From the IMG/VR virus record IMGVR_UViG_3300025154_001556: 64,000 nucleotides of DNA. The stretch is one strand, 5' to 3'. Shown in pieces: positions 1,035 through 46,317 of this stretch (its first letter is position 1; the number at the start of each line of letters is the position of its first letter). This DNA is from a virus (lineage: Duplodnaviria; Caudoviricetes). A program made the position numbers and the translations under genes. The notes below the pieces were generated by a model. It was not told where the DNA came from. It saw nothing but the letters and a program-made list of their open reading frames with translations, and did not search any database.

Positions 1035-1063
1035 AGTATATAACATTAATCAGTTTTCGTCAA
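1035..1063 (-). promoter_or_regulatory. sigma70-type promoter upstream of the SSAP gene
   Basis: TTGACG-N17-TATACT on the minus strand. Confidence 0.7.
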
Positions 1064-1214
1064 CAACTTTTATAACTGACTTGCATTTTTTGTCGCACTT
1101 GCATTCTTTAATGTATGGTACTTTGCCAGCTTCTCCTACTGAGTTTTCAATACCACCGTATTCACCTGAGATATGACAAGCACATTCATCACTACATTTA
1201 CACTCATCTGACAT
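1050..1214 (-). CDS. small Cys-rich protein (54 aa)
   Basis: Likely start is MSDECK at 1214 (SD GGAGG). The longer track ORF runs through the tRNA. 7 Cys in CxC/CxCH clusters. Confidence 0.55.
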   Translation of the reverse strand: MSDECKCSDECACHISGEYGGIENSVGEAGKVPYIKECKCDKKCKSVIKVVDEN

Positions 1215-1235: not shown

Positions 1236-1306
1236 TGTCCCGTAGAGGAATTGAACCCCTTTAAGCGAGTTTAGAGTTCGCCGCAACGCCTGTCTGCCAA
1301 CGGGAC
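1236..1306 (-). tRNA. tRNA with CUA anticodon (amber suppressor); no encoded CCA
   Basis: GTCCCGT-TG-GCAG ACAGGCG TTGC-G-GCGAA CTCTAAA CTCGC-TTAA-AGGGG TTCAATT CCTCT-ACGGGAC-A: perfect 7-bp acceptor stem, D-loop GG, TTC T-loop, one A-C mismatch in the anticodon stem. Confidence 0.88.
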
Positions 1307-1307
1307 T

Positions 1308-1904
1308 TTATGCTGTAATATTTTTGATAGCACTATAATGGTTCCAGATTTCTAAATCAAGTTCGGCGACCGTTTTATTGTATTTATATGCTAGTTTAAC
1401 AAATTCTTGTTCTAATTGCAAGTATTTTCTTTTGGTAGGTGTTGCTTTTGGTGCATCAAACCCCATAAGGCGCATAAATTTAAGTATATGGGTATCTAAC
1501 CCAGCGCAGTTTGCGTTCTTTCTACTATGTATAATAAAACACCTGGCTGTTTTCATTCCTATGCCGTGTATTTTTTCTAAGTCTTCTACGGCGCACTTTT
1601 TTAAATCCAACCCACAACAAGCCAGAGCTATAAAAGTTTTGGCTTTATTGTTATAACAACCTATGCCACAAGATCGTAATAGGTTATCTATACCGTGGAG
1701 CGGGGTACCTACATTGTTAGCAGCATAAGTAAGTATAGCATTAAATGGGGTTTCATCATTATGTGTTATTTTATTGAGCAATGTTTCTAGGCAACGTGCT
1801 GCTGTCTTACCGTTCTTTCCAGCAGCACATACCCAGAATAGTAGGCTCTCTTGTAGTTGAGCCGTAGTTTGATTATAGTTTGTTATGTTGTTTGGATCAA
1901 TCAT
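1308..1904 (-). CDS. HhH-GPD DNA glycosylase/AP lyase (Ogg/EndoIII-like)
   Basis: HhH motif IHGIGMKTAR followed by LDTHILK with the catalytic Asp. Confidence 0.75.
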   Translation of the reverse strand: MIDPNNITNYNQTTAQLQESLLFWVCAAGKNGKTAARCLETLLNKITHNDETPFNAILTYAANNVGTPLHGIDNLLRSCGIGCYNNKAKTFIALACCGLDLKKCAVEDLEKIHGIGMKTARCFIIHSRKNANCAGLDTHILKFMRLMGFDAPKATPTKRKYLQLEQEFVKLAYKYNKTVAELDLEIWNHYSAIKNITA

Positions 1905-2191
1905 AATAGTTGTAACTTTTTAAAAACTTTATCTTCGGCTACTGCTGCTATGGCAGTTAATTCATAGTTCATATCAGGCTCCCTAAAACTCTTCCAGGCC
2001 ACGCCAATCAAATCTAACTTATCACCCCAGTATTTAAGTATATCTTCATTCTTGACTTGCAGATATATTAAAGTGCCGTTGGTCCAAGAGGTTTTATAAT
2101 TAAGTAAATATTCAGCTAAGGCGTGGCCTGCTTGTATGGCCTGTTGTATTTTAGTTAAATCTTTTCTAACAAGCACATACATCTTTTTCAT
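1901..2191 (-). CDS. peptidyl-tRNA hydrolase 2 (Pth2)-like protein
   Basis: MYVLVRKDL...QAGHA...FREPD...LTAIA motifs. Confidence 0.8.
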   Translation of the reverse strand: MKKMYVLVRKDLTKIQQAIQAGHALAEYLLNYKTSWTNGTLIYLQVKNEDILKYWGDKLDLIGVAWKSFREPDMNYELTAIAAVAEDKVFKKLQLL

Positions 2192-2474
2192 ATTGCTTCA
2201 TCACCTCCTCCAATAAATTACTATACGGCGGATTGTAATTAGGTGATCCTGGTACCTCTATTTTTTCCATAGGAGTACCATGTAATAAGCAATATACAAT
2301 ATGTTTATATCTAAACTTTTCTTTAAGTTTGTTTAAATAGCACAGCTCTAATGTGTATTTATTATATATATTAGCACGTTGTGCTTCTTTGTAGCTTAAC
2401 CTGGTTGATCGTATTGAGCTTGCCAATTGTTTAAGTTCTGCTTTAAGTAGCGGCAGTTTTGTTTTCCGTGACAT
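2166..2474 (-). CDS. hypothetical phage protein; first gene after the RAPP leader
   Basis: ORF with SD AAGGAG; RYKHIVYCLLHG motif. Confidence 0.7.
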   Translation of the reverse strand: MSRKTKLPLLKAELKQLASSIRSTRLSYKEAQRANIYNKYTLELCYLNKLKEKFRYKHIVYCLLHGTPMEKIEVPGSPNYNPPYSNLLEEVMKQYEKDVCAC

Positions 2475-2483
2475 AATTATTCT

Positions 2484-2533
2484 CCTTTAATTTGATTAAT
2501 AATAAATTAATTAGTTTAATATCAAATTAAAAG
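2484..2533 (-). promoter_or_regulatory. hairpin sequestering the Shine-Dalgarno site of ORF 2166..2474
   Basis: 5' arm CTTTTAATTTGAT (2533-2521) pairs with 3' arm ATCAAATTAAAGG (2496-2484): 13 bp with one GU, including AAGG of the SD. Confidence 0.7.
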
Positions 2534-2566
2534 TCACGGTGGTGCTCTGGCCTACGTCCAAATCAT
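2534..2566 (-). CDS. leader peptide MIWT-[TAG]-ARAPP (amber-interrupted arrest-type uORF)
   Basis: GGAGG SD (2577-2573), then ATG ATT TGG ACG TAG GCC AGA GCA CCA CCG TGA. Confidence 0.7.
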
Positions 2567-4008: not shown

Positions 4009-4683
4009 TTAAAGTGATTCAATATATGTAGTTAATGACACTGATCTGGGCACGTAAACACTTGTTGTATCGATATAAACAGAAGAGTCAAGTTGTCTAT
4101 AAGGAACAAGTACTACATTTACACCTTTACTTAACAGCGACAAATATCTAGCTCTAGAGTGCACGTGTTCTGGATCATTGAGATCCAGAAAAGCCATAAA
4201 AGTAAAGTAGTTTCCGACCACACCTGTTCTGTATTCCATAAGTTTATTATATTGTACATGCCTACCTAATATATCTCTAGCCATATTTGCACTATTTTTA
4301 GCGAGGCTTTGTGTTGCTGCTCTAATTTCTAAACCATGGATAGGAGCTATGTCTAAAAGATCATTATAGTAATCTTCTTTATTCATATAAGTGGCATCAA
4401 CAGTGATTGTATCTTGACTTACAAATCCACCGTAGTTAAACACGTGCTTAAAGGTTAAGTCTGCCTTAGAGGAGGTGCCCTCAGTATGCACACGGCGCTT
4501 ACCCTTAGCTAAGTACATATATCTACAAGCTTGATAAACTTTATATAATTTTGTATCACTTCGTTGCGCATTTTGCCCTGAATAATTTTCAAAAAATTCA
4601 AACATACCTTCTAACCCGCGCTCAAAATTGGCCACAAGGTCCTGTGTAGAAACTTCTTTTGCTATCGCTAATTCTCCAGTCAT
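4009..4683 (-). CDS. hypothetical protein; possible PD-(D/E)XK restriction endonuclease partner of the MTase
   Basis: Directly upstream of the MTase. KADL...LEIRAATQSLAKNSANMARDILG resembles REase D...ExK..S..N..N...E..G patterns. Confidence 0.35.
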   Translation of the reverse strand: MTGELAIAKEVSTQDLVANFERGLEGMFEFFENYSGQNAQRSDTKLYKVYQACRYMYLAKGKRRVHTEGTSSKADLTFKHVFNYGGFVSQDTITVDATYMNKEDYYNDLLDIAPIHGLEIRAATQSLAKNSANMARDILGRHVQYNKLMEYRTGVVGNYFTFMAFLDLNDPEHVHSRARYLSLLSKGVNVVLVPYRQLDSSVYIDTTSVYVPRSVSLTTYIESL

Positions 4684-6876: not shown

Positions 6877-7536
6877 CTATTTAATTTTTCGTCCTCTAAC
6901 CCAACCCAAATTTTCCAACGTATTAAGTTCTTCTTTGTTTATGGACCTACTTTCATGAGTGTAAGGGCAGTAAATCCACACGGTACCATAGCGAGAATTA
7001 AGTTGTCCTGCTTGCTTTATTGAGTTTTTTCTACCAATTATATTCTTAGTTTCTTGTGTATGCTTTTTACCGTAAAAAGCGTTTTTAGTCCCTTTATGCT
7101 TACCGGTATGGGATTTACTAATTTTATCTTTATACTTTTCCCATCTGCCAGAAGCTATTAAAAGTGTCTTTAATTTATTACCACACACTAAATTTTCTTG
7201 CCCATAACCTTTTTGGCCATTTTTCCCATATAAATTTAATTTGAATTCATTTATGGTAGCTATATTTTTATAGCCGCCCTCAATTAAATTATATGTAAAT
7301 GGGTGTTTAACAAAGTCTTTGTTTACTAAGATTTCTTCAAGCTCCGACATGTCCTCGTGATTATCAAATACGGCCAGGATGTCTTTTTTAAAATTTTGTA
7401 TACCGTATTTTCGTTGAGCGGCTATAAGATGCCGCCCTGAACCCATATATGTGTCATCAACATGCGCAGTTCTATGGCAACCTATATAAATTTTATTATT
7501 AATGATGTTTGTTATTTTATATACAACATAAAACAT
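6877..7536 (-). CDS. free-standing GIY-YIG homing endonuclease with NUMOD3-like repeats
   Basis: VYKITNIINNKIYIGCH...YMGSG and HTQETKNII. Real start is probably MFYVVY at 7536, since the track start overlaps a tRNA. Confidence 0.88.
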   Translation of the reverse strand: MFYVVYKITNIINNKIYIGCHRTAHVDDTYMGSGRHLIAAQRKYGIQNFKKDILAVFDNHEDMSELEEILVNKDFVKHPFTYNLIEGGYKNIATINEFKLNLYGKNGQKGYGQENLVCGNKLKTLLIASGRWEKYKDKISKSHTGKHKGTKNAFYGKKHTQETKNIIGRKNSIKQAGQLNSRYGTVWIYCPYTHESRSINKEELNTLENLGWVRGRKIK

Positions 7537-7595
7537 ATAATAATTCCTGACACTTAAATAAAAAATTATTGTATTTGTATAAACATAATAATAAG

Positions 7596-7681
7596 TGGAG
7601 CCTAGAGAGGGATTCGAACCCCCGATGTGTTTTACCACGACAGCTTACAAAACTGCTGCTATACCCCTTAGCGATCTAGGC
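7596..7681 (-). tRNA. tRNA-Thr(UGU) with an atypical long variable arm; CCA encoded
   Basis: GCCTAGA/TCTAGGC acceptor, U73, CCA; anticodon arm GCAGT TTTGTAA GCTGT; 16-nt extra arm CGTGGTAAAACACATC; T-arm GGGGG TTCGAAT CCCTC. Confidence 0.8.
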
Positions 7682-7719: not shown

Positions 7720-7794
7720 TGGTAGCGGCAGTAGGACTCGAACCTACATAACCAGGGATATGAACCCTGTGAGAAGCCTTTTCTCGATGCCGCG
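7720..7794 (-). tRNA. initiator-type tRNA-Met(CAU); CCA encoded
   Basis: Anticodon arm CAGGG TTCATAT CCCTG with three consecutive G-C pairs, and an unpaired C1 in the acceptor stem. Confidence 0.88.
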
Positions 7795-11476: not shown

Positions 11477-12331
11477 CTATTTTAATGTATGACACTTAGT
11501 ACAAGCAATATTACGTTTTGCATGGGTATCATGAAGCCCACTATTCCAAGTTTTCCTACTGTGACAGGTGCTACATAAGTTTTGCCACGGAGTCATAATA
11601 AAACCAGTAGGGTCAACGGTACCTGTACCAGGAGTAGGGGTAGGGGTAGGGGTAGGGGTGGTGCCTGTGTCCCCGTCAACCCCATCTTTTACCTCACCTG
11701 AGCCCACTGTAACATGGCAGTCCAAGCAGCCCTGATGTATAAGGTATGTTTCTTTCCTAAAACCAGGTGTGGCATGTGGATAGTGGCACATTTTACATGT
11801 TATAATATCCCCTTTTAGCAGTACAGCGATCCCGCCCCCAGATACAATTTCATCACCACTCATAGGGTCTTTAACAAAACCCCCATTTCCGTCGGCTACC
11901 TTTCTACCGTTAAATACGAAATCGTATTGAGCGCAGATAAACTTGTCGAATGCAACCACTGAGTCCTTCCCATTATGACAGTCTCTGCATACACCAACAC
12001 CTTCACGCTTTACTCTCTCGCCATGATTTACTCCATGTGCGTTGCCGGGTGACGGTAAAAACTTAGTAACAGTGTCCGGACATTCTGGACAAACCGGGTC
12101 TGGACATTCTGGACAAACTTGATCTTTACATTCCTCGCACGAAGGACACTCTCTATCTTTACATTCCTCGCACGAAGGACACTCTTTATCTTTAACTTTC
12201 TTTTCTTGTTTGTAAGACTCTCTATCGCGTTTATGCTCATCATCCTTAGCAATAGATGTACCCGCTACCATAAAACTAAAACAGAGTAAGATTGTTATAA
12301 TACTTAACAATTTATTCATACATTCCTCCAT
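11477..12331 (-). CDS. secreted multiheme cytochrome c (5 CXXCH motifs)
   Basis: N-terminal signal peptide; CRDCH, CKMCH, CLDCH, CSTCH, CTKCH; CPxC repeats; (TP)n linker. Confidence 0.85.
   Translation of the reverse strand: MEECMNKLLSIITILLCFSFMVAGTSIAKDDEHKRDRESYKQEKKVKDKECPSCEECKDRECPSCEECKDQVCPECPDPVCPECPDTVTKFLPSPGNAHGVNHGERVKREGVGVCRDCHNGKDSVVAFDKFICAQYDFVFNGRKVADGNGGFVKDPMSGDEIVSGGGIAVLLKGDIITCKMCHYPHATPGFRKETYLIHQGCLDCHVTVGSGEVKDGVDGDTGTTPTPTPTPTPGTGTVDPTGFIMTPWQNLCSTCHSRKTWNSGLHDTHAKRNIACTKCHTLK
12078..12193 (-). repeat. coding tandem repeats (33-nt x2 and 24-nt x2) encoding ECPSCEECKD and VCPECPD
   Basis: atctttacattcctcgcacgaaggacactc is duplicated; ggacattctggacaaac is duplicated. 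Confidence 0.85.
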
Positions 12332-13423: not shown

Positions 13424-14194
13424 TTATACTACTTCTAATGTAGCTGGTGCTGCCCCTTCAAAAATAACTTCTTCTTTATTAGAAAGTTTTGATAATGGGG
13501 GAATAAGATATTCAGCTACAATGTGGCGATTTACAAATATATCATTTAACCTTGTAGCCTTTTTAATCAGCTGTCTTTTAACATAAGTACCACGTTTAAA
13601 GTGTGTAGGGTAATCGTTCCAATTTACACCTTTTCTCATAAGCATGTCTAACATCTCTTCCCTATTTTTAGAGTGCAGTTCTTTGTGTGCATAATGGAAT
13701 CTTGCTGCCATAGAGACACTGTTTTTAATTGCATCTAATTCACGCCATACAAGTGTGTTGACTGCCTCCATTTTAGTAGGAACCACCCAAGCACGACAAT
13801 CAAATAGACCAGCATCTTCACCTTTTTCAGGAATAACTTCTTTAAGATAAGAAGAAAACATAACTGATGCCGCTGAAGCCAATACAGAAACAATCTTCTG
13901 TATTTTTCCATCAAAATAAACTTGTTTATTATAACTATCGCTATATAAAATAAGGCTTATTTCATCACTTTGGGTGTAACCTATTATTGCGTTTGACATT
14001 GAAACTAACGCCCCAGTGACATTTATCATTAAATGACTTAAACGTTCATCATAAGGCCTTTTAAGGCCTTTTGTAAGTGTACTAAAACATTTACCATCCA
14101 ATCTTACACATATAGGTAGTAAAGGAGTAAATTGTCTGCCTGACTCATAACGCTCTAACAATTTCATCCTGTCACCCAGCGCATCTTTATTCAT
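13424..14194 (-). CDS. tRNA(His) guanylyltransferase Thg1-like protein
   Basis: RLDGKCFS, GYTQSDEISL, FDCR and FKRGT motifs. Confidence 0.9.
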   Translation of the reverse strand: MNKDALGDRMKLLERYESGRQFTPLLPICVRLDGKCFSTLTKGLKRPYDERLSHLMINVTGALVSMSNAIIGYTQSDEISLILYSDSYNKQVYFDGKIQKIVSVLASAASVMFSSYLKEVIPEKGEDAGLFDCRAWVVPTKMEAVNTLVWRELDAIKNSVSMAARFHYAHKELHSKNREEMLDMLMRKGVNWNDYPTHFKRGTYVKRQLIKKATRLNDIFVNRHIVAEYLIPPLSKLSNKEEVIFEGAAPATLEVV

Positions 14195-20390: not shown

Positions 20391-21155
20391 TTAGTTTAAA
20401 TGCGCTTGTAGCACAGACATAACCAGCTTTTCCACTTTAATATAATCGGGTTTTACTGGTAGTTTACTATGCTTAAAACTACATTCTATCTTTTTAAATA
20501 ACCTTTCAGCCTCAGCTTTTACTTGTATTAAAGACCATTTACCTGTTTTTATTTCAAGAAGTTCTTCAAAATCTTCTCTATGTATATTTAATTCACCAGA
20601 ATTAAGGTATTCATCACCCATCCTAAGTAATCTTATACAGTGGCTGGCATTTTTTGGGTCAAATCCATACTTATTAACTAACTCTTTTCTTTTGCTACCC
20701 ATATAACCCAATTTAATATTACTTTCCATATGTTTAAGTTGACCATAAGCATAGCCAACAAAAGAGTTGTAGGCCTCTTTTGATATAAATAGTTTTTTAT
20801 TATCTATTAATAGTTGTCCAGCAGGTGCTTTATTTAAGTAGTGCTCAGATTTCAACCATAGCATGCCTAATACATTAGGATTAGACTTTAATAGCAAATT
20901 TACAAATTTTCTAAATTCATAAGATACAACATCATATTTATCTTTAAAACATTCTATTGCCCTTTCATGTTTTCTTTCTAACCCTAAACCTATGTAGTAT
21001 TCCTTAGGTGCCATGTATACACCCATAAGATCTATATCGTCAATGGAGTTTGGATCTGTGTTGGGTATATACATTCCGTGGGCGATACTTCCACGATATG
21101 CTTCTATGATGGTGTTATCTGGGAATAATTCTTTACTTAATTCTGGTGTTAACAT
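20391..21155 (-). CDS. nucleotidyltransferase, DNA pol beta superfamily (RlaP/Nuc-transf-like)
   Basis: RGSIAHG, SIDDIDLMGV, NPNVLGMLW and HCIRLL. Confidence 0.85.
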   Translation of the reverse strand: MLTPELSKELFPDNTIIEAYRGSIAHGMYIPNTDPNSIDDIDLMGVYMAPKEYYIGLGLERKHERAIECFKDKYDVVSYEFRKFVNLLLKSNPNVLGMLWLKSEHYLNKAPAGQLLIDNKKLFISKEAYNSFVGYAYGQLKHMESNIKLGYMGSKRKELVNKYGFDPKNASHCIRLLRMGDEYLNSGELNIHREDFEELLEIKTGKWSLIQVKAEAERLFKKIECSFKHSKLPVKPDYIKVEKLVMSVLQAHLN

Positions 21156-25441: not shown

Positions 25442-26029
25442 CTAAGCTGCTATTTCTTTATCTATGTATTTAAATATATCTTGTAATTTACTTATTCTTA
25501 TAACTTTACTATTAATATACCATTTATTATATGGCCTGTCAATTAAAAAATTTACTGCTTTGGTGTGCTCTAACATGGATTCTATATTTACTGCATGGTC
25601 ATCTATATAAACGTTCAAACCTAACTGTCTACCCAAAAGTCCTTTATTACTACCATGCCCTAGGGCGTGTAATGAAGTATAAGGTATAGCATGAGTATCA
25701 AACCATTTTTGCGTAGCAAGTAGGGCAGCCTCAGGACGTGCTGTTATGAAATGCACATCATGTCCAAACGCAAATAATTTTTTTATCGTTTCCGATACCC
25801 CATAGTAGGGTGGTGCATTATATAAATAAGCGGTATCATTAACCCAAGCTATAATATCTTCTGCTATACTTTTATTTGTTTCATCACACTCTGTATAGTT
25901 ATTTGAAAAAAAATTATACTCCGCAAAAGTAGAAATTGTGTTTTTAACTCCCCACTTTAAATGTATGGAATCCAGTATTGATGATAATAAATCACACACA
26001 ACTTCATCAACGTCTATGCCAATGTTCAT
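25442..26029 (-). CDS. 5'(3')-deoxyribonucleotidase, HAD family
   Basis: GIDVDEV, FITAR, YIDD and RPYN. Confidence 0.85.
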   Translation of the reverse strand: MNIGIDVDEVVCDLLSSILDSIHLKWGVKNTISTFAEYNFFSNNYTECDETNKSIAEDIIAWVNDTAYLYNAPPYYGVSETIKKLFAFGHDVHFITARPEAALLATQKWFDTHAIPYTSLHALGHGSNKGLLGRQLGLNVYIDDHAVNIESMLEHTKAVNFLIDRPYNKWYINSKVIRISKLQDIFKYIDKEIAA

Positions 26030-43248: not shown

Positions 43249-44799
43249 TTAAAAAGTTTCTGAGTTTATGACGTTGGTGGTCTGTGTTGCTAACATTTCT
43301 GCCACTTTACTTTTTTGTTCAAGCATTGATTTAGATACAGCGTCAAAAGTTTTAACCCAAGTATTACCAACTGCTGTTTGCCAATCTAGGGTACCTGTAA
43401 CAAATTTATACGCCTGCTCGGCCTTAGTCATGGCCTCTTCATAATTATTATACACATGTAGCATCTTGTCGATTAGATCTTCTACATCAACTAATGGGCG
43501 TCTTACTTCGTTGTCATAAGGAAGTACTGTCCATAGACTGGGGTTAGTACCGCTTTTTACAAGGTAGCCCACATCCTCAGTAATATTTTCTATCATTGCT
43601 GTGTTTCTGGGCATAATAACGGGTGTTTTAGCGGCCATTGCTTCTATCCATGAAAGCCCCCACCCTTCACCAAGACTTGCGCTAACAACGCAATCAACAC
43701 AGTTATACAGCATATTAACTATTTCTCTCGGATAGCCTTGATTAGGCCCAAAATTTTGAGGAAATATGACGTCATCGGTTAAACTAAAATCATACGCTCT
43801 ACATACTTCTGGCAGATTCCATCCCTGATCTTGTTTAGCCATATGCAGATATAATAAAGTATTTGGTTCTTTTTTACGTAACTCATGGAATGCTTGGATA
43901 GTCCTAGGAATATCCTTACGTTGCTGATTTCTATTTAGGTTCATGTAAATAAATTTATCAGCATGACGACCAAAGTAACGTTTTCTAAAATCAGCTACTT
44001 CATCCTTAGGTAATGGTTTGTATTCATTGATATTAACCCCATGAGGAATTACAGACATATCACCCACAATTGGGTATGTTTCCTGACATAGCTTTCTACC
44101 AAAGTTAGCGAAAGTAATTACTTCATCACAGAAACTAACATTTTTTATCCACTCTGGCTTAGGTGTACCATCAATGGGAAAATACACCACGGATTTAAAC
44201 GGCGTCTCCCTATTCTTTTTAAGATGTGGAATCAACTCAGGTAAAAAATCCAAAATAAAACTGTCCTGCATAAAAAATAGAATATCAAAATCCATTTTAG
44301 GAATCATATTAACTATCTTTTTACGACCGTAGGGATCTCTTTCCGCATTATTACCTACCGGCCAAATCTTATATGGAAAATCATGTGGATCTCCCCAGTA
44401 ATTTATACCCAACACTTCGATGTCATATCTACCCGTTTTATACAACGCTTCTAAAACATTACGGCTGACTGTTGCAAAACCTGTTGCCAAATATCTTCAT
44501 ATAAGAACGCTACTTCTTATACCGCTTCTTGGGCTGCTGCATGTTTCCATGCAAGTTGAGACTATATCATCATCCACTTGGGATGCTACGTGCTTCCACC
44601 CGCTTGGGTGTACTTCCTTATATGGAATAGTCGTTGCACCTTCCTCTATAAAGAGGCTTGGCTCAGGATTGTCCTCGACTTGACGTTAGGAGTTCCCCTG
44701 AATTCTCGTAGTTATTCGGTACATATTGCTATGTAAAGCTGCACATTATTTACAGGAGGGGGTGTCCATATAACATAAAATTTTAATCTTTTTTCCCAT
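43249..44799 (-). CDS. intron-split GT4-like glycosyltransferase, 428 aa, join(44752..44799,43249..44487)
   Basis: Spliced N-terminus MGKKIKILCYMDTPSC/ATGFATVSRNV; RNQQRK and GEGWGL motifs; SD AAGGAG before the exon 1 ATG. Confidence 0.88.
44488..44751 (-). mobile_element. group I intron (264 nt) without an ORF
   Basis: P1 CTGT|A with TGCAG (U-G at the splice site); P3 CTACG/CGTAG; core GAATTCAGGGGAA, AATCCTGAGCC, GGTGCAACGACTA, GATATAGTC; P9 TGCATG-GAAA-CATGCA; terminal G. Confidence 0.9.
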
Positions 44800-44808
44800 A
44801 GAAACTCC

Positions 44809-45160
44809 TTAATTGTTTAGTAATCTTCCACGATTACGCATTAAAATTGAATACCAGTTCTCGTGCCAAATTCTATCAGTATTAGCACGAGAATTACAAC
44901 TTCTACATAGAGTTATTAAATTAATAGGTCTGCAATCCTCCTTGTCATAATTTATATGATGGATAGTTAACTCCTTAGTTATACCAAAACAGTAAGGATT
45001 TCTACAAACGTTATTATCTCTATATTTTATCGATTCTTTATAAATCTTATCTTTCCAGGCACCACAATTTAGTGCTTGCGTTTATATAAATGTCATCAAT
45101 AAGTGTGTAACCATACTTTTCAAACTGTGCTTTTATAAAGTCAATTGTATGTCTTTTCAT
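44809..45160 (-). pseudogene. HNH homing endonuclease remnant (internal deletion or frameshift)
   Basis: The frame from ATG 45160 (MKRHTIDFIKAQFEKYGYTLIDDIYINASTKLWCLER) stops early. Another frame with no start encodes CGAWKDKIYKESIKYRDNNVCRNPYC...TIHHINYDK...NLITLCRSCNS. Confidence 0.8.
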
Positions 45161-46317
45161 TTATTTTTTATTTTACGTACATCTAAAAAAGGTGTTGTAA
45201 AATTCACAGTCATGCTATCTACTATTTTAGCCTTGGCTGCGGGGTTCTTATCCATATATTTTTCAATATCTGATTTATTTAAAGATACCATATTCAATAG
45301 ATACTCTTGTGGTACTATTTGTTTAACCGCGCTAATATCGTAAGTTGCTCTACTATTTTGTCTAACATAAACTTCTTTGTCGTCTACTTGTACATTTATA
45401 CCAGTAGTTTTTATACGATCCATAAGAAGTAAAGATAGTTCTTTCTCGCGCATTTCATATATTTTTTTCATCTTTTTAACTTGTTGCCACTCATCGACCA
45501 AAGCACTGTTATCTAAACGATACGCTTCTTGAAATTTGCCGTTCGAATTTGTATATGCCTCTTTATACGCATTACAATATTCTCTAAAATCACACCAAGG
45601 ACAAAATGTGTTTATTGTGGCTTTTACATCCTGCTCTTTCAAGGAAAGCATGGAATCGTACACTAATCTAAGATATTCAGAAAAAGCAGCCCGTTCTTCT
45701 GGTGTACGATAAGAATATAACATCTCATGTTTTAACAAGTCAAGGCTAACTATAATACGCTTTCCAGGCCACAATATACTGGCTACCAAATCATACATAG
45801 ACAACTGTTTGTCTGTTTTTAGTTGATCCGGTGTAGGTGCAGTTTTAGATGTTTTATAGTCCACAATTAGAATGGTGTCTTCATCTACCTGTAATACTTT
45901 ATCAATAGCGCCCAACAACGGCACACCTTCTTTGGTGATTACATCTACACCACCTTTATAACCAAAGGGAGTTTCTAAGCTTATTATTTTGTGCCCTTCA
46001 TGTATAAAATCATTTATTCTATTAGTTACTAATTCTATACCTGTTTGGTGTACGGAAAAATCATCAATTCCTTCTTTTACAGAGACTTCTTTAAACTTAT
46101 TAATAATAGTTTCTTTATCTTTTTTAGTGAACTTCTCTTTTTCCCGCCAGATATTTCCAGCCAACTCCAAGGCAATGTGAACAGCTGTACCTAATTTAAA
46201 TACCGGATTATCTATTTTAGGTAATTTATCATAATAGTTAAACCAGTATTTCTGCTTACATTGCAAAAAAGTACTTATGCGTGTAGCACTTATTTTAATG
46301 CCCTCATTATTTACCAT
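45157..46317 (-). CDS. PD-(D/E)XK nuclease (RecB/Cas4-like exonuclease)
   Basis: SATRISTFLQC, GAID, VDYKT, Q..Y and C..C. Confidence 0.85.
   Translation of the reverse strand: MVNNEGIKISATRISTFLQCKQKYWFNYYDKLPKIDNPVFKLGTAVHIALELAGNIWREKEKFTKKDKETIINKFKEVSVKEGIDDFSVHQTGIELVTNRINDFIHEGHKIISLETPFGYKGGVDVITKEGVPLLGAIDKVLQVDEDTILIVDYKTSKTAPTPDQLKTDKQLSMYDLVASILWPGKRIIVSLDLLKHEMLYSYRTPEERAAFSEYLRLVYDSMLSLKEQDVKATINTFCPWCDFREYCNAYKEAYTNSNGKFQEAYRLDNSALVDEWQQVKKMKKIYEMREKELSLLLMDRIKTTGINVQVDDKEVYVRQNSRATYDISAVKQIVPQEYLLNMVSLNKSDIEKYMDKNPAAKAKIVDSMTVNFTTPFLDVRKIKNK

What the first reader, a model, noticed from the sequence alone, without database searches (positions are those of the whole stretch)
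1236..1306. Amber suppressor tRNA in a region that otherwise uses the standard code
Seen: a canonical cloverleaf with a CU-CUA-AA loop, G1-C72, A73, a 4-nt variable loop and no CCA. Long genes here are intact under code 11, and about 11 ORFs end in TAG. This points to conditional readthrough rather than genome-wide recoding. Which amino acid it carries is not evident from the sequence.
Basis: partly seen in the sequence, partly recalled or inferred. Interest (0 to 1): 0.75.

Follow-up and report, generated by a model that had tools for sequence, protein, structure and literature searches.

The report
Phage amber-suppressor tRNA with its own gate
A large groundwater phage that uses the normal genetic code carries a real UAG-reading tRNA, and its one identifiable target is a UAG-interrupted leader in front of its own small operon, an arrangement that hundreds of other phages share and that may explain why normal-code phages carry suppressor tRNAs.

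Summary
The tRNA is real. It lies at 1236-1306 on the minus strand with anticodon CUA, loop CU-CUA-AA, G1-C72, A73, a 4-nt variable loop and no encoded CCA. It is not tRNA-Pyl.

The phage (~237 kb, groundwater) is not recoded. In the 127 kb I could assemble, code-11 ORFs cover 95.4%, reading TAG as sense adds nothing, and TAG ends 21 of 150 genes.

The only in-frame TAG with evidence of decoding lies 1.2 kb upstream in the same operon. It is the leader M-I-W-T-UAG-A-R-A-P-P-UGA, followed by a hairpin that hides the next gene's ribosome-binding site. Two diverged relatives keep the peptide after the UAG, with a synonymous Arg codon change, and keep the tRNA.

Of 160 phage loci with the operon's Pth2-fold gene, 138 have a same-strand suppressor tRNA. 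A TAG leader with R-x-P-P occurs in 86 of 145. In 21 of 156 the Pth2-like gene has a TAG inside its conserved domain. One TAA gate and one TGA gate sit beside UUA and UCA tRNAs.

The amino acid and the final purpose remain unknown. The scan had noted this module before in at least 12 genomes. I found no published description.

The parts
1236..1306 (-). tRNA with anticodon CUA (amber-suppressor type). It has A73 and no encoded CCA, and starts 1 nt after the stop codon of the upstream gene.
   Evidence: ARAGORN; Rfam RF00005 42.8 bits; structure; conserved with compensatory changes in L014 and L015
2581..2608 (-). Sigma-70-like promoter match (TTAAAA-16-TATAAT) just upstream of the leader. The relatives have TTGACA-17-TATAAT or TATAGT at the same place.
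   Evidence: Consensus scan; relatives read directly. This is a consensus match only.
2534..2566 (-). Leader ORF AUG AUU UGG ACG UAG GCC AGA GCA CCA CCG UGA, which reads M-I-W-T-UAG-A-R-A-P-P-stop. The in-frame UAG is at 2552-2554.
   Evidence: Sequence. Relatives read M-I-W-T-UAG-T-R-G-P-P-UGA with Arg as AGA or CGT. The TAG...R-x-P-P motif occurs in 86 of 145 related loci against 1 for TGA and 0 for TAA.
2466..2539 (-). Hairpin that starts in the last leader codons (CCGUGAC...) and pairs with the Shine-Dalgarno sequence (AAGGAG, 2482-2487) and the first codons (GUCACGG) of the next gene.
   Evidence: RNA folds of the window and of both relatives give the same pairing
2166..2474 (-). ORF-X, a 102-aa helical protein of unknown function and the first gene behind the leader. 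It ends in TAG.
   Evidence: ORF list. About 100-aa homologues hold the same position in most related loci, with invariant R55, H58, Y61 and E73. AF2 model pLDDT 86.7, with no fold or family match.
1901..2191 (-). Pth2-fold protein (96 aa, peptidyl-tRNA hydrolase 2-like). It overlaps the genes on both sides.
   Evidence: Pfam PF01981 scores 17.5 bits, below the cut-off of 23. A profile hits PDB Pth2 entries at E 7e-4 and 2e-3. AF2 model pLDDT 96.8. Foldseek TM 0.77-0.84 to archaeal Pth2 and human Bit1.
1308..1904 (-). HhH / Ogg-like protein (198 aa) between the Pth2-like gene and the tRNA. It is probably an insertion into the core module.
   Evidence: PF22175 E 1.4e-09; phrog_11575. phiCbK-like phages have it without the tRNA. 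In most related loci the tRNA directly follows the Pth2-like gene.
1050..1214 (-). Cys-rich 54-aa ORF whose ribosome-binding site lies 13 nt after the tRNA. It is conserved downstream of the tRNA in relatives, and whether it belongs to the module is uncertain.
   Evidence: also present in L014 and L015

Best explanation
This is a functional phage-encoded amber-suppressor tRNA that works as one half of a self-contained translational gate. It does not support a changed genetic code. The tRNA is transcribed as the tail of the operon leader - ORF-X - Pth2-like - HhH - tRNA(CUA), from a sigma-70-like promoter. It is cut out of that transcript by the usual tRNA 5'- and 3'-end processing, receives CCA, and is charged by a host synthetase with an amino acid that probably does not matter. 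When enough charged tRNA outcompetes release factor 1 at the leader's UAG, the ribosome reads on into Arg-Ala-Pro-Pro and stalls there. The stalled ribosome sits on the 5' arm of the hairpin and so frees the ribosome-binding site and start codon of ORF-X. ORF-X and the translationally coupled Pth2-like hydrolase are therefore made only while UAG is being read through. Shown here: the tRNA and its conservation, the standard code of the phage, the conserved design of leader, hairpin and operon, the tight linkage of tRNA and Pth2-like gene, and the match between gate codon and anticodon. Inferred: actual suppression, the stalling, the direction of regulation, and the purpose. My best guess for the purpose is that the Pth2-like enzyme deals with peptidyl-tRNA or stalled complexes produced by readthrough in the infected cell, or tunes that readthrough.
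For: (1) The tRNA is real and structurally constrained. Its loop CUCUAAA has A36-A37-A38, as do about 123 of 139 module tRNAs.
(2) The phage uses the standard code: 95.4% code-11 coverage over 127 kb, no gain from reading TAG as sense, and TAG as the stop of 21 of 150 genes. A 7,682-aa tape-measure gene is called under code 11.
(3) The leader has an in-frame UAG, and the peptide after it is conserved in relatives at 54-64% protein identity. Arg is AGA in two and CGT in one, and the motif is RAPP or RGPP. No start codon follows the UAG.
(4) The same hairpin over the ribosome-binding site and AUG folds in all three.
(5) Of 160 loci found through the Pth2-like protein, 138 have a same-strand suppressor tRNA. 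Among those with at least 1.5 kb downstream the figure is 105 of 115, and the tRNA usually follows the gene directly.
(6) TAG...R-x-P-[PD] lies upstream of ORF-X in 86 of 145 loci, against 1 for TGA, 0 for TAA, and 1 of 119 control windows.
(7) 21 of 156 Pth2-like genes carry TAG inside the conserved domain, and none carries TGA or TAA except L052.
(8) The gate codon matches the anticodon. L052 has TAA in the gene and tRNA(UUA). L145 has UGA in the leader and tRNA(UCA).
(9) In cultured Serratia phage BF the Pth2-like gene begins M-T-H-UAG and is unannotated, and a tRNA annotated 'tRNA-Sup' lies 3.3 kb downstream.
Against: There is no expression, aminoacylation or readthrough data (see Tried and rejected). 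The tRNA has an A31·C39 mismatch and no encoded CCA, so it may be a weak suppressor. The phage does not avoid TAG stops, and the sequence after its TAG stops looks no different from that after other stops, so strong global suppression is unlikely. A gate that controls only its own operon has no obvious benefit, so a further target probably exists that I did not find. About a third of related loci did not match my leader or in-gene TAG patterns, although many visibly have variant leaders. The two non-UAG matches are single cases. The 160 loci are not de-duplicated (118 unique tRNA sequences) and were chosen by likeness to this phage's protein. 110 kb of this genome was not examined.
Confidence: 0.68

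Rival explanations
1. The tRNA's main job is global. It causes partial readthrough of UAG stops on host mRNAs, and on the phage's 14% of TAG-ended genes, as host takeover, counter-defence or to make extended protein variants. On this reading the leader is only a sensor that couples the Pth2-like clean-up enzyme to that activity. This is compatible with the best explanation and differs only in what the primary target is.
For: A gate that serves only itself needs an outside purpose. The operon has a host-type promoter, so it should be expressed early. The Pth2 fold fits the recycling of products of aberrant termination. Cultured standard-code jumbo phages carry suppressor tRNAs with no identified targets (PMC5852040, PMC6102473).
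Against: No phage gene shows a conserved readthrough extension. The two long open frames after TAG (DNA polymerase, NT5C-like) contain their own ATG-started small ORFs. Extension lengths after TAG equal those after TAA and TGA. The TAG stop of ORF-X is TAA in relatives. The host is unknown, so host TAG usage could not be examined.
Confidence: 0.2
2. The phage is partly recoded (TAG as sense, code-15-like) in late genes outside the DNA examined, and the tRNA serves those genes as in crAss-like and Lak phages. Alternatively it is a remnant or precursor of such recoding.
For: Suppressor tRNAs correlate strongly with TAG recoding in phages (10.1101/2021.08.26.457843). TAG-recoded Lak phages also have a Pth2-like homologue. 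A few related loci gain much coding density when TAG is read as sense. About 110 kb of this genome was not examined.
Against: 127 kb of this genome, including tail-fibre-like and tape-measure genes, shows no in-frame TAG need. TAG is used as a stop about as often as TGA (21 against 29). No release-factor or aminoacyl-tRNA synthetase gene was seen in the annotated parts.
Confidence: 0.06
3. The tRNA gene is a non-functional or neutral passenger, such as a mutated elongator tRNA, a processing signal in the transcript or an integration-site remnant, and the leader's UAG is simply its stop codon.
For: It has the second-lowest Rfam score of the seven tRNAs, an A31·C39 mismatch and no CCA. There are no expression data.
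Against: The anticodon CUA and the cloverleaf are kept across very diverged sequences, with median pairwise identity 0.59 and 18 of 20 pairs covarying. The peptide after the UAG is conserved. TAG occurs inside the conserved domain of 21 Pth2-like genes. The gate codon matches the anticodon.
Confidence: 0.04
4. It is a pyrrolysine tRNA, as ARAGORN's label says.
For: ARAGORN names every CUA tRNA 'tRNA-Pyl'.
Against: It has two nucleotides (U8, G9) between the acceptor and D stems, a 7-nt D loop with GG, a 5-position anticodon stem, a 4-nt variable loop and a normal UUCAAUU T loop. By established knowledge, tRNA-Pyl has one spacer nucleotide, a 5-nt D loop without GG, a 6-bp anticodon stem and a 3-nt variable loop. 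No pyl gene was seen in the annotated DNA.
Confidence: 0.01

Closest known systems
Suppressor tRNA(CUA) genes of TAG-recoded phages (crAss-like, Lak and other 'code 15' phages; Borges et al. preprint 10.1101/2021.08.26.457843; Peters et al. PMC9523058)
   Same: A phage-encoded tRNA with anticodon CUA, encoded among standard-code early or replication genes. Lak phages also carry a homologue of the Pth2-like protein.
   Different: Here no protein-coding gene needs TAG decoding in 127 kb, TAG is a normal stop (14% of genes), and no release factor 2 gene was seen. The only decoded UAG appears to be regulatory.
Suppressor tRNAs of cultured standard-code jumbo phages: Xanthomonas phage XacN1 (two CUA tRNAs; PMC5852040), Agrobacterium phage Atu_ph07 (UCA; PMC6102473), Serratia phage BF (annotated 'tRNA-Sup')
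   Same: A standard-code large phage with a suppressor tRNA, tRNA-repair genes (Thg1) and a peptidyl-tRNA hydrolase. XacN1 and BF have homologues of this Pth2-like protein.
   Different: The XacN1 authors could not identify any target gene. Here a target is proposed: the stop-gated leader or Pth2-like gene. In BF the Pth2-like gene starts M-T-H-UAG and is unannotated.
RAPP/RGPP-type ribosome-arrest leader peptides (ApdA, ApdP, ApcA; SecM with RAGP) that unmask a downstream ribosome-binding site
   Same: A short upstream ORF ends in Arg-Ala/Gly-Pro-Pro next to a hairpin that sequesters the next gene's Shine-Dalgarno sequence.
   Different: The arrest motif can only be reached by reading through an in-frame stop codon that matches a tRNA encoded in the same operon. 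The nascent chain is very short (9 residues) and has no secretion signal. Arrest itself is untested.
Laboratory amber suppressors (E. coli supE/supF type, phage T4 psu1) and UAG-gated synthetic circuits of genetic code expansion
   Same: The same anticodon loop CUCUAAA, and the same logic that a UAG in a gene makes its expression depend on a suppressor tRNA.
   Different: This is a natural, conserved arrangement. The tRNA is not a one-step mutant of a recognisable elongator tRNA.
PTH2 genes of jumbo phages (Iyer et al. 2021, PMC7824862)
   Same: Archaeo-eukaryotic-type peptidyl-tRNA hydrolase fold in large phages.
   Different: That survey interprets PTH2 as part of tRNA repair and ribosome rescue and does not mention suppressor tRNAs (the word 'suppressor' occurs 0 times). 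Here the gene is physically and logically tied to a suppressor tRNA.

Membership tests
Canonical tRNA (Rfam RF00005) | Full-length match to the covariance model above the gathering score | tested here: met
   42.8 bits against 29, model positions 1-71 of 71
Canonical tRNA (Rfam RF00005) | Cloverleaf kept by compensatory changes in relatives | tested here: met
   18 of 20 pairs show changes on both sides among 19 module tRNAs
Amber-suppressor tRNA (functional class) | Anticodon CUA in a 7-nt loop with U33 and A37 | tested here: met
   Loop CUCUAAA. The same loop occurs in 82 of 139 module tRNAs.
Amber-suppressor tRNA (functional class) | UAG is actually decoded as an amino acid | not testable with these tools
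   Indirect support only: peptide-level conservation after the leader UAG and TAG inside conserved Pth2-like domains
tRNA-Pyl | One nucleotide between acceptor and D stems, 5-nt D loop without G18G19, 6-bp anticodon stem, 3-nt variable loop | tested here: not met
   Two spacer nucleotides, a 7-nt D loop with GG, a 5-position anticodon stem and a 4-nt variable loop. The defining features are from established knowledge.
Suppressor tRNA of a stop-codon-recoded (code 15) phage | Many genes with in-frame TAG, or low coding density under code 11 that is restored by reading TAG as sense | tested here: not met
   95.4% coverage under code 11 against 95.1% with TAG as sense over 127 kb. About 110 kb was not examined.
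Suppressor tRNA of a stop-codon-recoded (code 15) phage | Phage release factor 2 gene, or depletion of TAG as a stop | tested here: not met
   TAG ends 21 of 150 genes. No RF domain appears in the Pfam lists. Window stretches of about 26-46 kb were only partly scanned.
RAPP-type arrest leader | Short upstream ORF with R-A/G-P-P followed by a structure that hides the downstream ribosome-binding site | tested here: met
RAPP-type arrest leader | Ribosome arrest at the motif | not testable with these tools
   Needs toeprinting or in vitro translation
Pth2 (PF01981) for the linked 96-aa protein | Pfam score above the gathering cut-off | tested here: not met
   17.5 bits against 23. A few homologues carry a precomputed PF01981 hit.
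Pth2 (PF01981) for the linked 96-aa protein | Pth2 fold | tested here: met
   Foldseek TM 0.77-0.84 and probability 1.00 to 2zv3, 3erj, 1xty and 1q7s
Pth2 (PF01981) for the linked 96-aa protein | Catalytic residues and hydrolase activity | not tested
   The invariant D73 and T79 align with D and T of Pth2 in the HMMER alignment, but no structural superposition or assay was done

The most novel reading that the evidence does not exclude
The tRNA and the stop-gated Pth2 operon form an autonomous 'readthrough licence' module in which the inserted amino acid does not matter. Phages would use it to flip an infected cell into a UAG-reading state and to check that the flip has worked. The same module would be the evolutionary seed from which full TAG recoding (code 15) arose repeatedly, with ORF-X and the Pth2-like protein acting on termination itself, for example against release factor 1 or on peptidyl-tRNA at UAG.
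Probability: 0.25. Interest if true: 0.9.

Novelty: new variant of a known kind. Interest (0 to 1): 0.74.

Why it matters
Suppressor tRNAs in phages that keep the standard code have been reported repeatedly without any known target; the XacN1 paper says so explicitly. This analysis gives them a concrete, testable target: a stop-codon gate in front of, or inside, a Pth2-family gene encoded next to the tRNA. The gate is conserved in hundreds of phage contigs, and its codon tracks the anticodon. If confirmed, it would be a natural switch that tests whether suppression is working, the counterpart of UAG-gated circuits built in synthetic biology. It would also be a likely stepping stone toward stop-codon recoding in phages. 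It exposes unannotated genes in cultured phages such as Serratia phage BF, where the experiments can be done.

Tried and rejected
1. No whole genome is held for the window, and the metagenome records behind my loci are not searchable. I walked along contigs with ten look-ups instead.

2. Several searches found nothing: megablast and tblastn of window parts against cultured phages, an exact tRNA 36-mer and an exact leader pattern in IMG/VR, and single-protein searches for the Rad52-like protein and ORF-X in IMG/VR.

3. The long open frames after the TAG stops of the DNA polymerase (76 codons) and of the NT5C-like gene (58 codons) looked like readthrough extensions. Both contain an ATG-started small ORF right after the stop, so I rejected them as evidence.

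4. Isotype assignment failed. The nearest non-suppressor neighbours among 575 phage tRNAs are only 62-70% alike and of mixed isotypes. The module tRNAs are as unlike each other, with median identity 0.59. The discriminator base varies: A 71, U 42, G 19, C 7. In-frame TAGs fall in a variable loop of the Pth2-like protein. No amino acid can be inferred.

5. The HhH gene is not linked to the tRNA in phiCbK-like, Erythrobacter or huge phages.

6. Expression could not be assessed. No RNA holder is listed among the public runs. Two wastewater 'RNA?' runs, one flagged as probably DNA, gave only short contigs of relatives. This says nothing either way.

7. ORF-X has no Pfam, PDB-sequence or Foldseek match.

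8. I did not use complex prediction, because I make no binding claim.

Full report
**Observation.** ARAGORN reports a 71-nt tRNA with anticodon CUA at 1236-1306 on the minus strand. Rfam's tRNA model matches it end to end at 42.8 bits, above the gathering score of 29.
- G1-C72, U2-A71, C3-G70 and discriminator A73
- loop CU-CUA-AA
- a 4-nt variable loop
- GG in the D loop and a normal T loop
- no CCA after A73

It also has an A31·C39 mismatch at the bottom of the anticodon stem. ARAGORN's label 'tRNA-Pyl' is only its name for any CUA anticodon. The spacer, D loop, anticodon stem and variable loop are those of an ordinary tRNA, not of tRNA-Pyl.

**Context and genetic code.** The window is the replication and nucleotide-metabolism module of a large phage. 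It holds DNA polymerase, ribonucleotide reductase, DnaB, primase, a clamp, RecA and six more tRNAs, all on the minus strand. The same proteins occur on contigs from more than 100 sample blocks of groundwater metagenomes, the longest being 236,830 bases.

I walked outward with exact-protein look-ups and merged 127 kb, about 54% of the genome. This stretch includes tail-fibre-like genes and the end of a 7,682-residue tape-measure gene called under the standard code. Results:
- ORFs under code 11 cover 95.4% of it.
- Reading TAG as sense gives 95.1% and reading TGA as sense gives 95.1%.
- Stop codons are TAA 100, TGA 29 and TAG 21.

Open frames after TAG stops are no longer than after other stops. 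Two apparent long extensions are separate small genes with their own ATG. No release factor or aminoacyl-tRNA synthetase was seen (and the Pfam lists of the look-ups). So the phage is not recoded in what I could see, and it does not avoid TAG.

**The local operon.** The tRNA begins one nucleotide after the stop codon of an HhH/Ogg-like gene. It is followed 13 nt later by the ribosome-binding site of a Cys-rich small ORF, so it sits inside a polycistronic transcript. Upstream lie overlapping genes for a 96-aa protein and a 102-aa protein, which I call ORF-X.

In front of these is a 10-codon leader, AUG AUU UGG ACG UAG GCC AGA GCA CCA CCG UGA, preceded by a sigma-70-like promoter match. The leader's last codons and the following bases form the 5' arm of a hairpin. 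Its 3' arm covers the Shine-Dalgarno sequence and the first codons of ORF-X.

Earlier notes of this scan had flagged this leader, and I tested it independently. Two relatives, L014 on a 157-kb contig and L015, have ORF-X at 64% and 54% identity. Both keep:
- a strong TTGACA-17-TATAAT-type promoter
- the leader as M-I-W-T-UAG-T-R-G-P-P-UGA, with Arg as AGA in one and CGT in the other
- the same hairpin
- a tRNA(CUA) at the syntenic place, with compensatory acceptor-stem changes, A73 and an encoded CCA

Conservation of the peptide after the UAG through synonymous changes, with no start codon behind the UAG, means these codons are translated. That in turn means the UAG is read.

**Wider comparison.** The 96-aa protein has many relatives. 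Using their alignment I fetched 80 loci from JGI metagenomes and 80 from IMG/VR. The main counts:
- 138 of the 160 loci have a suppressor-type tRNA on the same strand: 136 CUA tRNA genes, two UCA by ARAGORN's tabular output (the bracket-format parse used afterwards lists only L145) and one UUA.
- Among loci with at least 1.5 kb downstream the figure is 105 of 115, and most often the tRNA directly follows the gene.
- CUA is by far the commonest anticodon among the 717 tRNAs of these loci.
- A roughly 100-aa ORF-X homologue precedes the gene in most loci.
- Upstream of ORF-X, a stop codon followed within 14 codons by R-x-P-P/D occurs in 86 of 145 loci for TAG, 1 for TGA and 0 for TAA. In control windows elsewhere in the loci it occurs in 1 of 119.
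- Many loci that the pattern missed visibly have variant leaders.
- 21 of 156 Pth2-like genes carry a TAG inside the conserved domain. 17 of these sit in one surface loop.

The two non-amber cases match their neighbouring tRNAs. L052 has a TAA in that same loop and a tRNA(UUA) beside it. L145 has M-I-M-K-R-I-UGA-T-R-N-R-G-P-D as leader and a tRNA(UCA). Most of these loci look standard-coded, and a few may be TAG-recoded.

**The linked proteins.** The 96-aa protein scores below Pfam's PTH2 cut-off. Its profile finds Pth2 structures. A confident model (pLDDT 96.8) superposes on archaeal Pth2 and human Bit1 with TM 0.77-0.84. ORF-X is a helical protein with invariant R, H, Y and E residues and no detectable relatives of known function.

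**Amino-acid identity.** I could not assign it, for four reasons:
- The module tRNAs are as different from each other as from other isotypes.
- Their discriminator base varies.
- The in-gene TAGs lie at variable columns.
- From memory of the E. coli suppressor literature, a CUA anticodon with U35 and A73 tends to be charged by LysRS, and CUA generally by GlnRS. That is only a lead.

The pattern fits a tRNA whose job is to get the ribosome past the stop, whatever residue is inserted.

**Literature and cultured phages.**
- Suppressor tRNAs are well known in recoded phages and are occasionally noted in standard-code relatives as possible precursors of recoding.
- The XacN1 paper reports two CUA tRNAs in a standard-code jumbo phage and states that no target genes could be identified. 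Atu_ph07 has a UCA suppressor.
- A survey of jumbo phages notes PTH2 genes but never mentions suppressors.
- Searches for arrest peptides combined with readthrough or suppressor tRNAs found no natural example.
- Homologues of the Pth2-like protein occur in XacN1, Stenotrophomonas, Yersinia, Erwinia, Serratia, Aeromonas, Acinetobacter and Lak phages.
- In Serratia phage BF the gene lies in an unannotated gap and starts M-T-H-UAG-N-D-K, with no alternative start. The record's 'tRNA-Sup' lies 3.3 kb downstream.

**Mechanism and rivals.** The best-supported reading is that the tRNA is an active, probably modest, amber suppressor. Its demonstrable target is the gate of its own operon. Readthrough of the leader UAG lets the ribosome reach R-A-P-P, stall on the hairpin's 5' arm and expose the start of ORF-X. 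ORF-X and the coupled Pth2-like protein are then made only while suppression is working.

Why a phage needs this is inferred, not shown. Most likely the hydrolase handles, or tunes, the consequences of readthrough in the infected cell. In that case global readthrough of host or phage UAG stops may be the real purpose, which is the main rival and is not exclusive of the best reading. Partial recoding in unseen DNA, a dead tRNA and tRNA-Pyl are all unlikely on the evidence above.

**Novelty and prior notes.** The scan had already described the amber-gated leader on this genome and the leader/Pth2/tRNA module in at least 12 other genomes. My counts were made independently and agree with those notes. 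As a phage suppressor tRNA the object is a known kind. Its coupling to a matching stop-codon gate and a Pth2-family gene is a variant I did not find published.

**Limits.**
- There are no expression or biochemical data.
- The host is unknown.
- 46% of the genome was not examined.
- The loci are not de-duplicated or phylogenetically corrected.
- The codon-anticodon matches outside UAG rest on single cases.

Noticed in passing
window 44537-44761 (-): Group I intron (Rfam RF00028, 83 bits) between the ORFs 43249-44490 and 45157-46317, presumably splitting one gene.
   Followed up: no
window 7720-7794 (-): The phage tRNA-Met(CAU) looks like an initiator tRNA. It has a C1·U72 mismatch at the top of the acceptor stem and GGG/CCC in the anticodon stem.
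   Followed up: no
window 13424-14194 (-) and 20391-21155 (-): Thg1-family tRNA-His guanylyltransferase (PF04446, E 5e-28) and an RlaP RNA-repair nucleotidyltransferase (PF10127). XacN1 and Atu_ph07, which also carry suppressor tRNAs, likewise encode Thg1. Whether Thg1 acts on the A73 suppressor tRNA (G-1 addition would make it a HisRS substrate) is an untested idea.
   Followed up: no
window 6877-7638, 11477-12331, 25442-26029 (-): Three genes end in the tandem arrangement TAG-one codon-TAG. This could be a back-up against amber readthrough or a shared C-terminus of paralogous homing-endonuclease-like genes.
   Followed up: partly
window 1050-1214 (-); L014 11721-11885; L015 about 4019-4246: A Cys-rich 54-aa ORF (motifs such as CKC...C.CH...KCKC) is conserved immediately downstream of the tRNA(CUA) in this phage and both close relatives.
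   Followed up: no
L007 10419-14036: The phage encodes a 1,205-aa hybrid sensor histidine kinase (SBP_bac_3, PAS, GAF, HATPase_c, Response_reg domains). This is unusual for a phage. Earlier scan notes link it to a c-di-GMP riboswitch elsewhere in the genome.
   Followed up: no
L001 15443-17017: A 524-aa product with intein/homing-endonuclease domains (Hom_end_hint, LAGLIDADG_3) lies downstream of a ClpB-like AAA protein.
   Followed up: no
L179 2475-2813 (Serratia phage BF NC_041917.1, about 286084-286422): An unannotated Pth2-like gene in a cultured phage has UAG as its fourth codon (M-T-H-UAG-N-D-K-T-W-I-Y-V-F-V-R-T-D-L...). The record's 'tRNA-Sup' is at 289666-289741. The Yersinia fHe-Yen9 and Erwinia pEa_SNUABM phages show the same unannotated gap at the match.
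   Followed up: partly
L014 11625-11698 and 12 further module tRNAs: Thirteen of 139 module tRNA(CUA) genes have C instead of the near-universal U at position 33 (loop CCCUAAA or CCCUAAC).
   Followed up: no
L142, L144, L145 (IMG/VR contigs): These related loci gain 22-31 points of ORF coverage when TAG is read as sense but little when TGA is, so they may be TAG-recoded phages that carry the same module. L145 nevertheless has a UCA tRNA and a UGA leader next to its Pth2-like gene.
   Followed up: no
L178 1961-2800 (XacN1 ORF364); L180 2015-2800 (Stenotrophomonas phage RAS14): In these cultured phages the Pth2-like domain is the C-terminal part of a 260-280-aa annotated protein, a fused form without an adjacent tRNA.
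   Followed up: no
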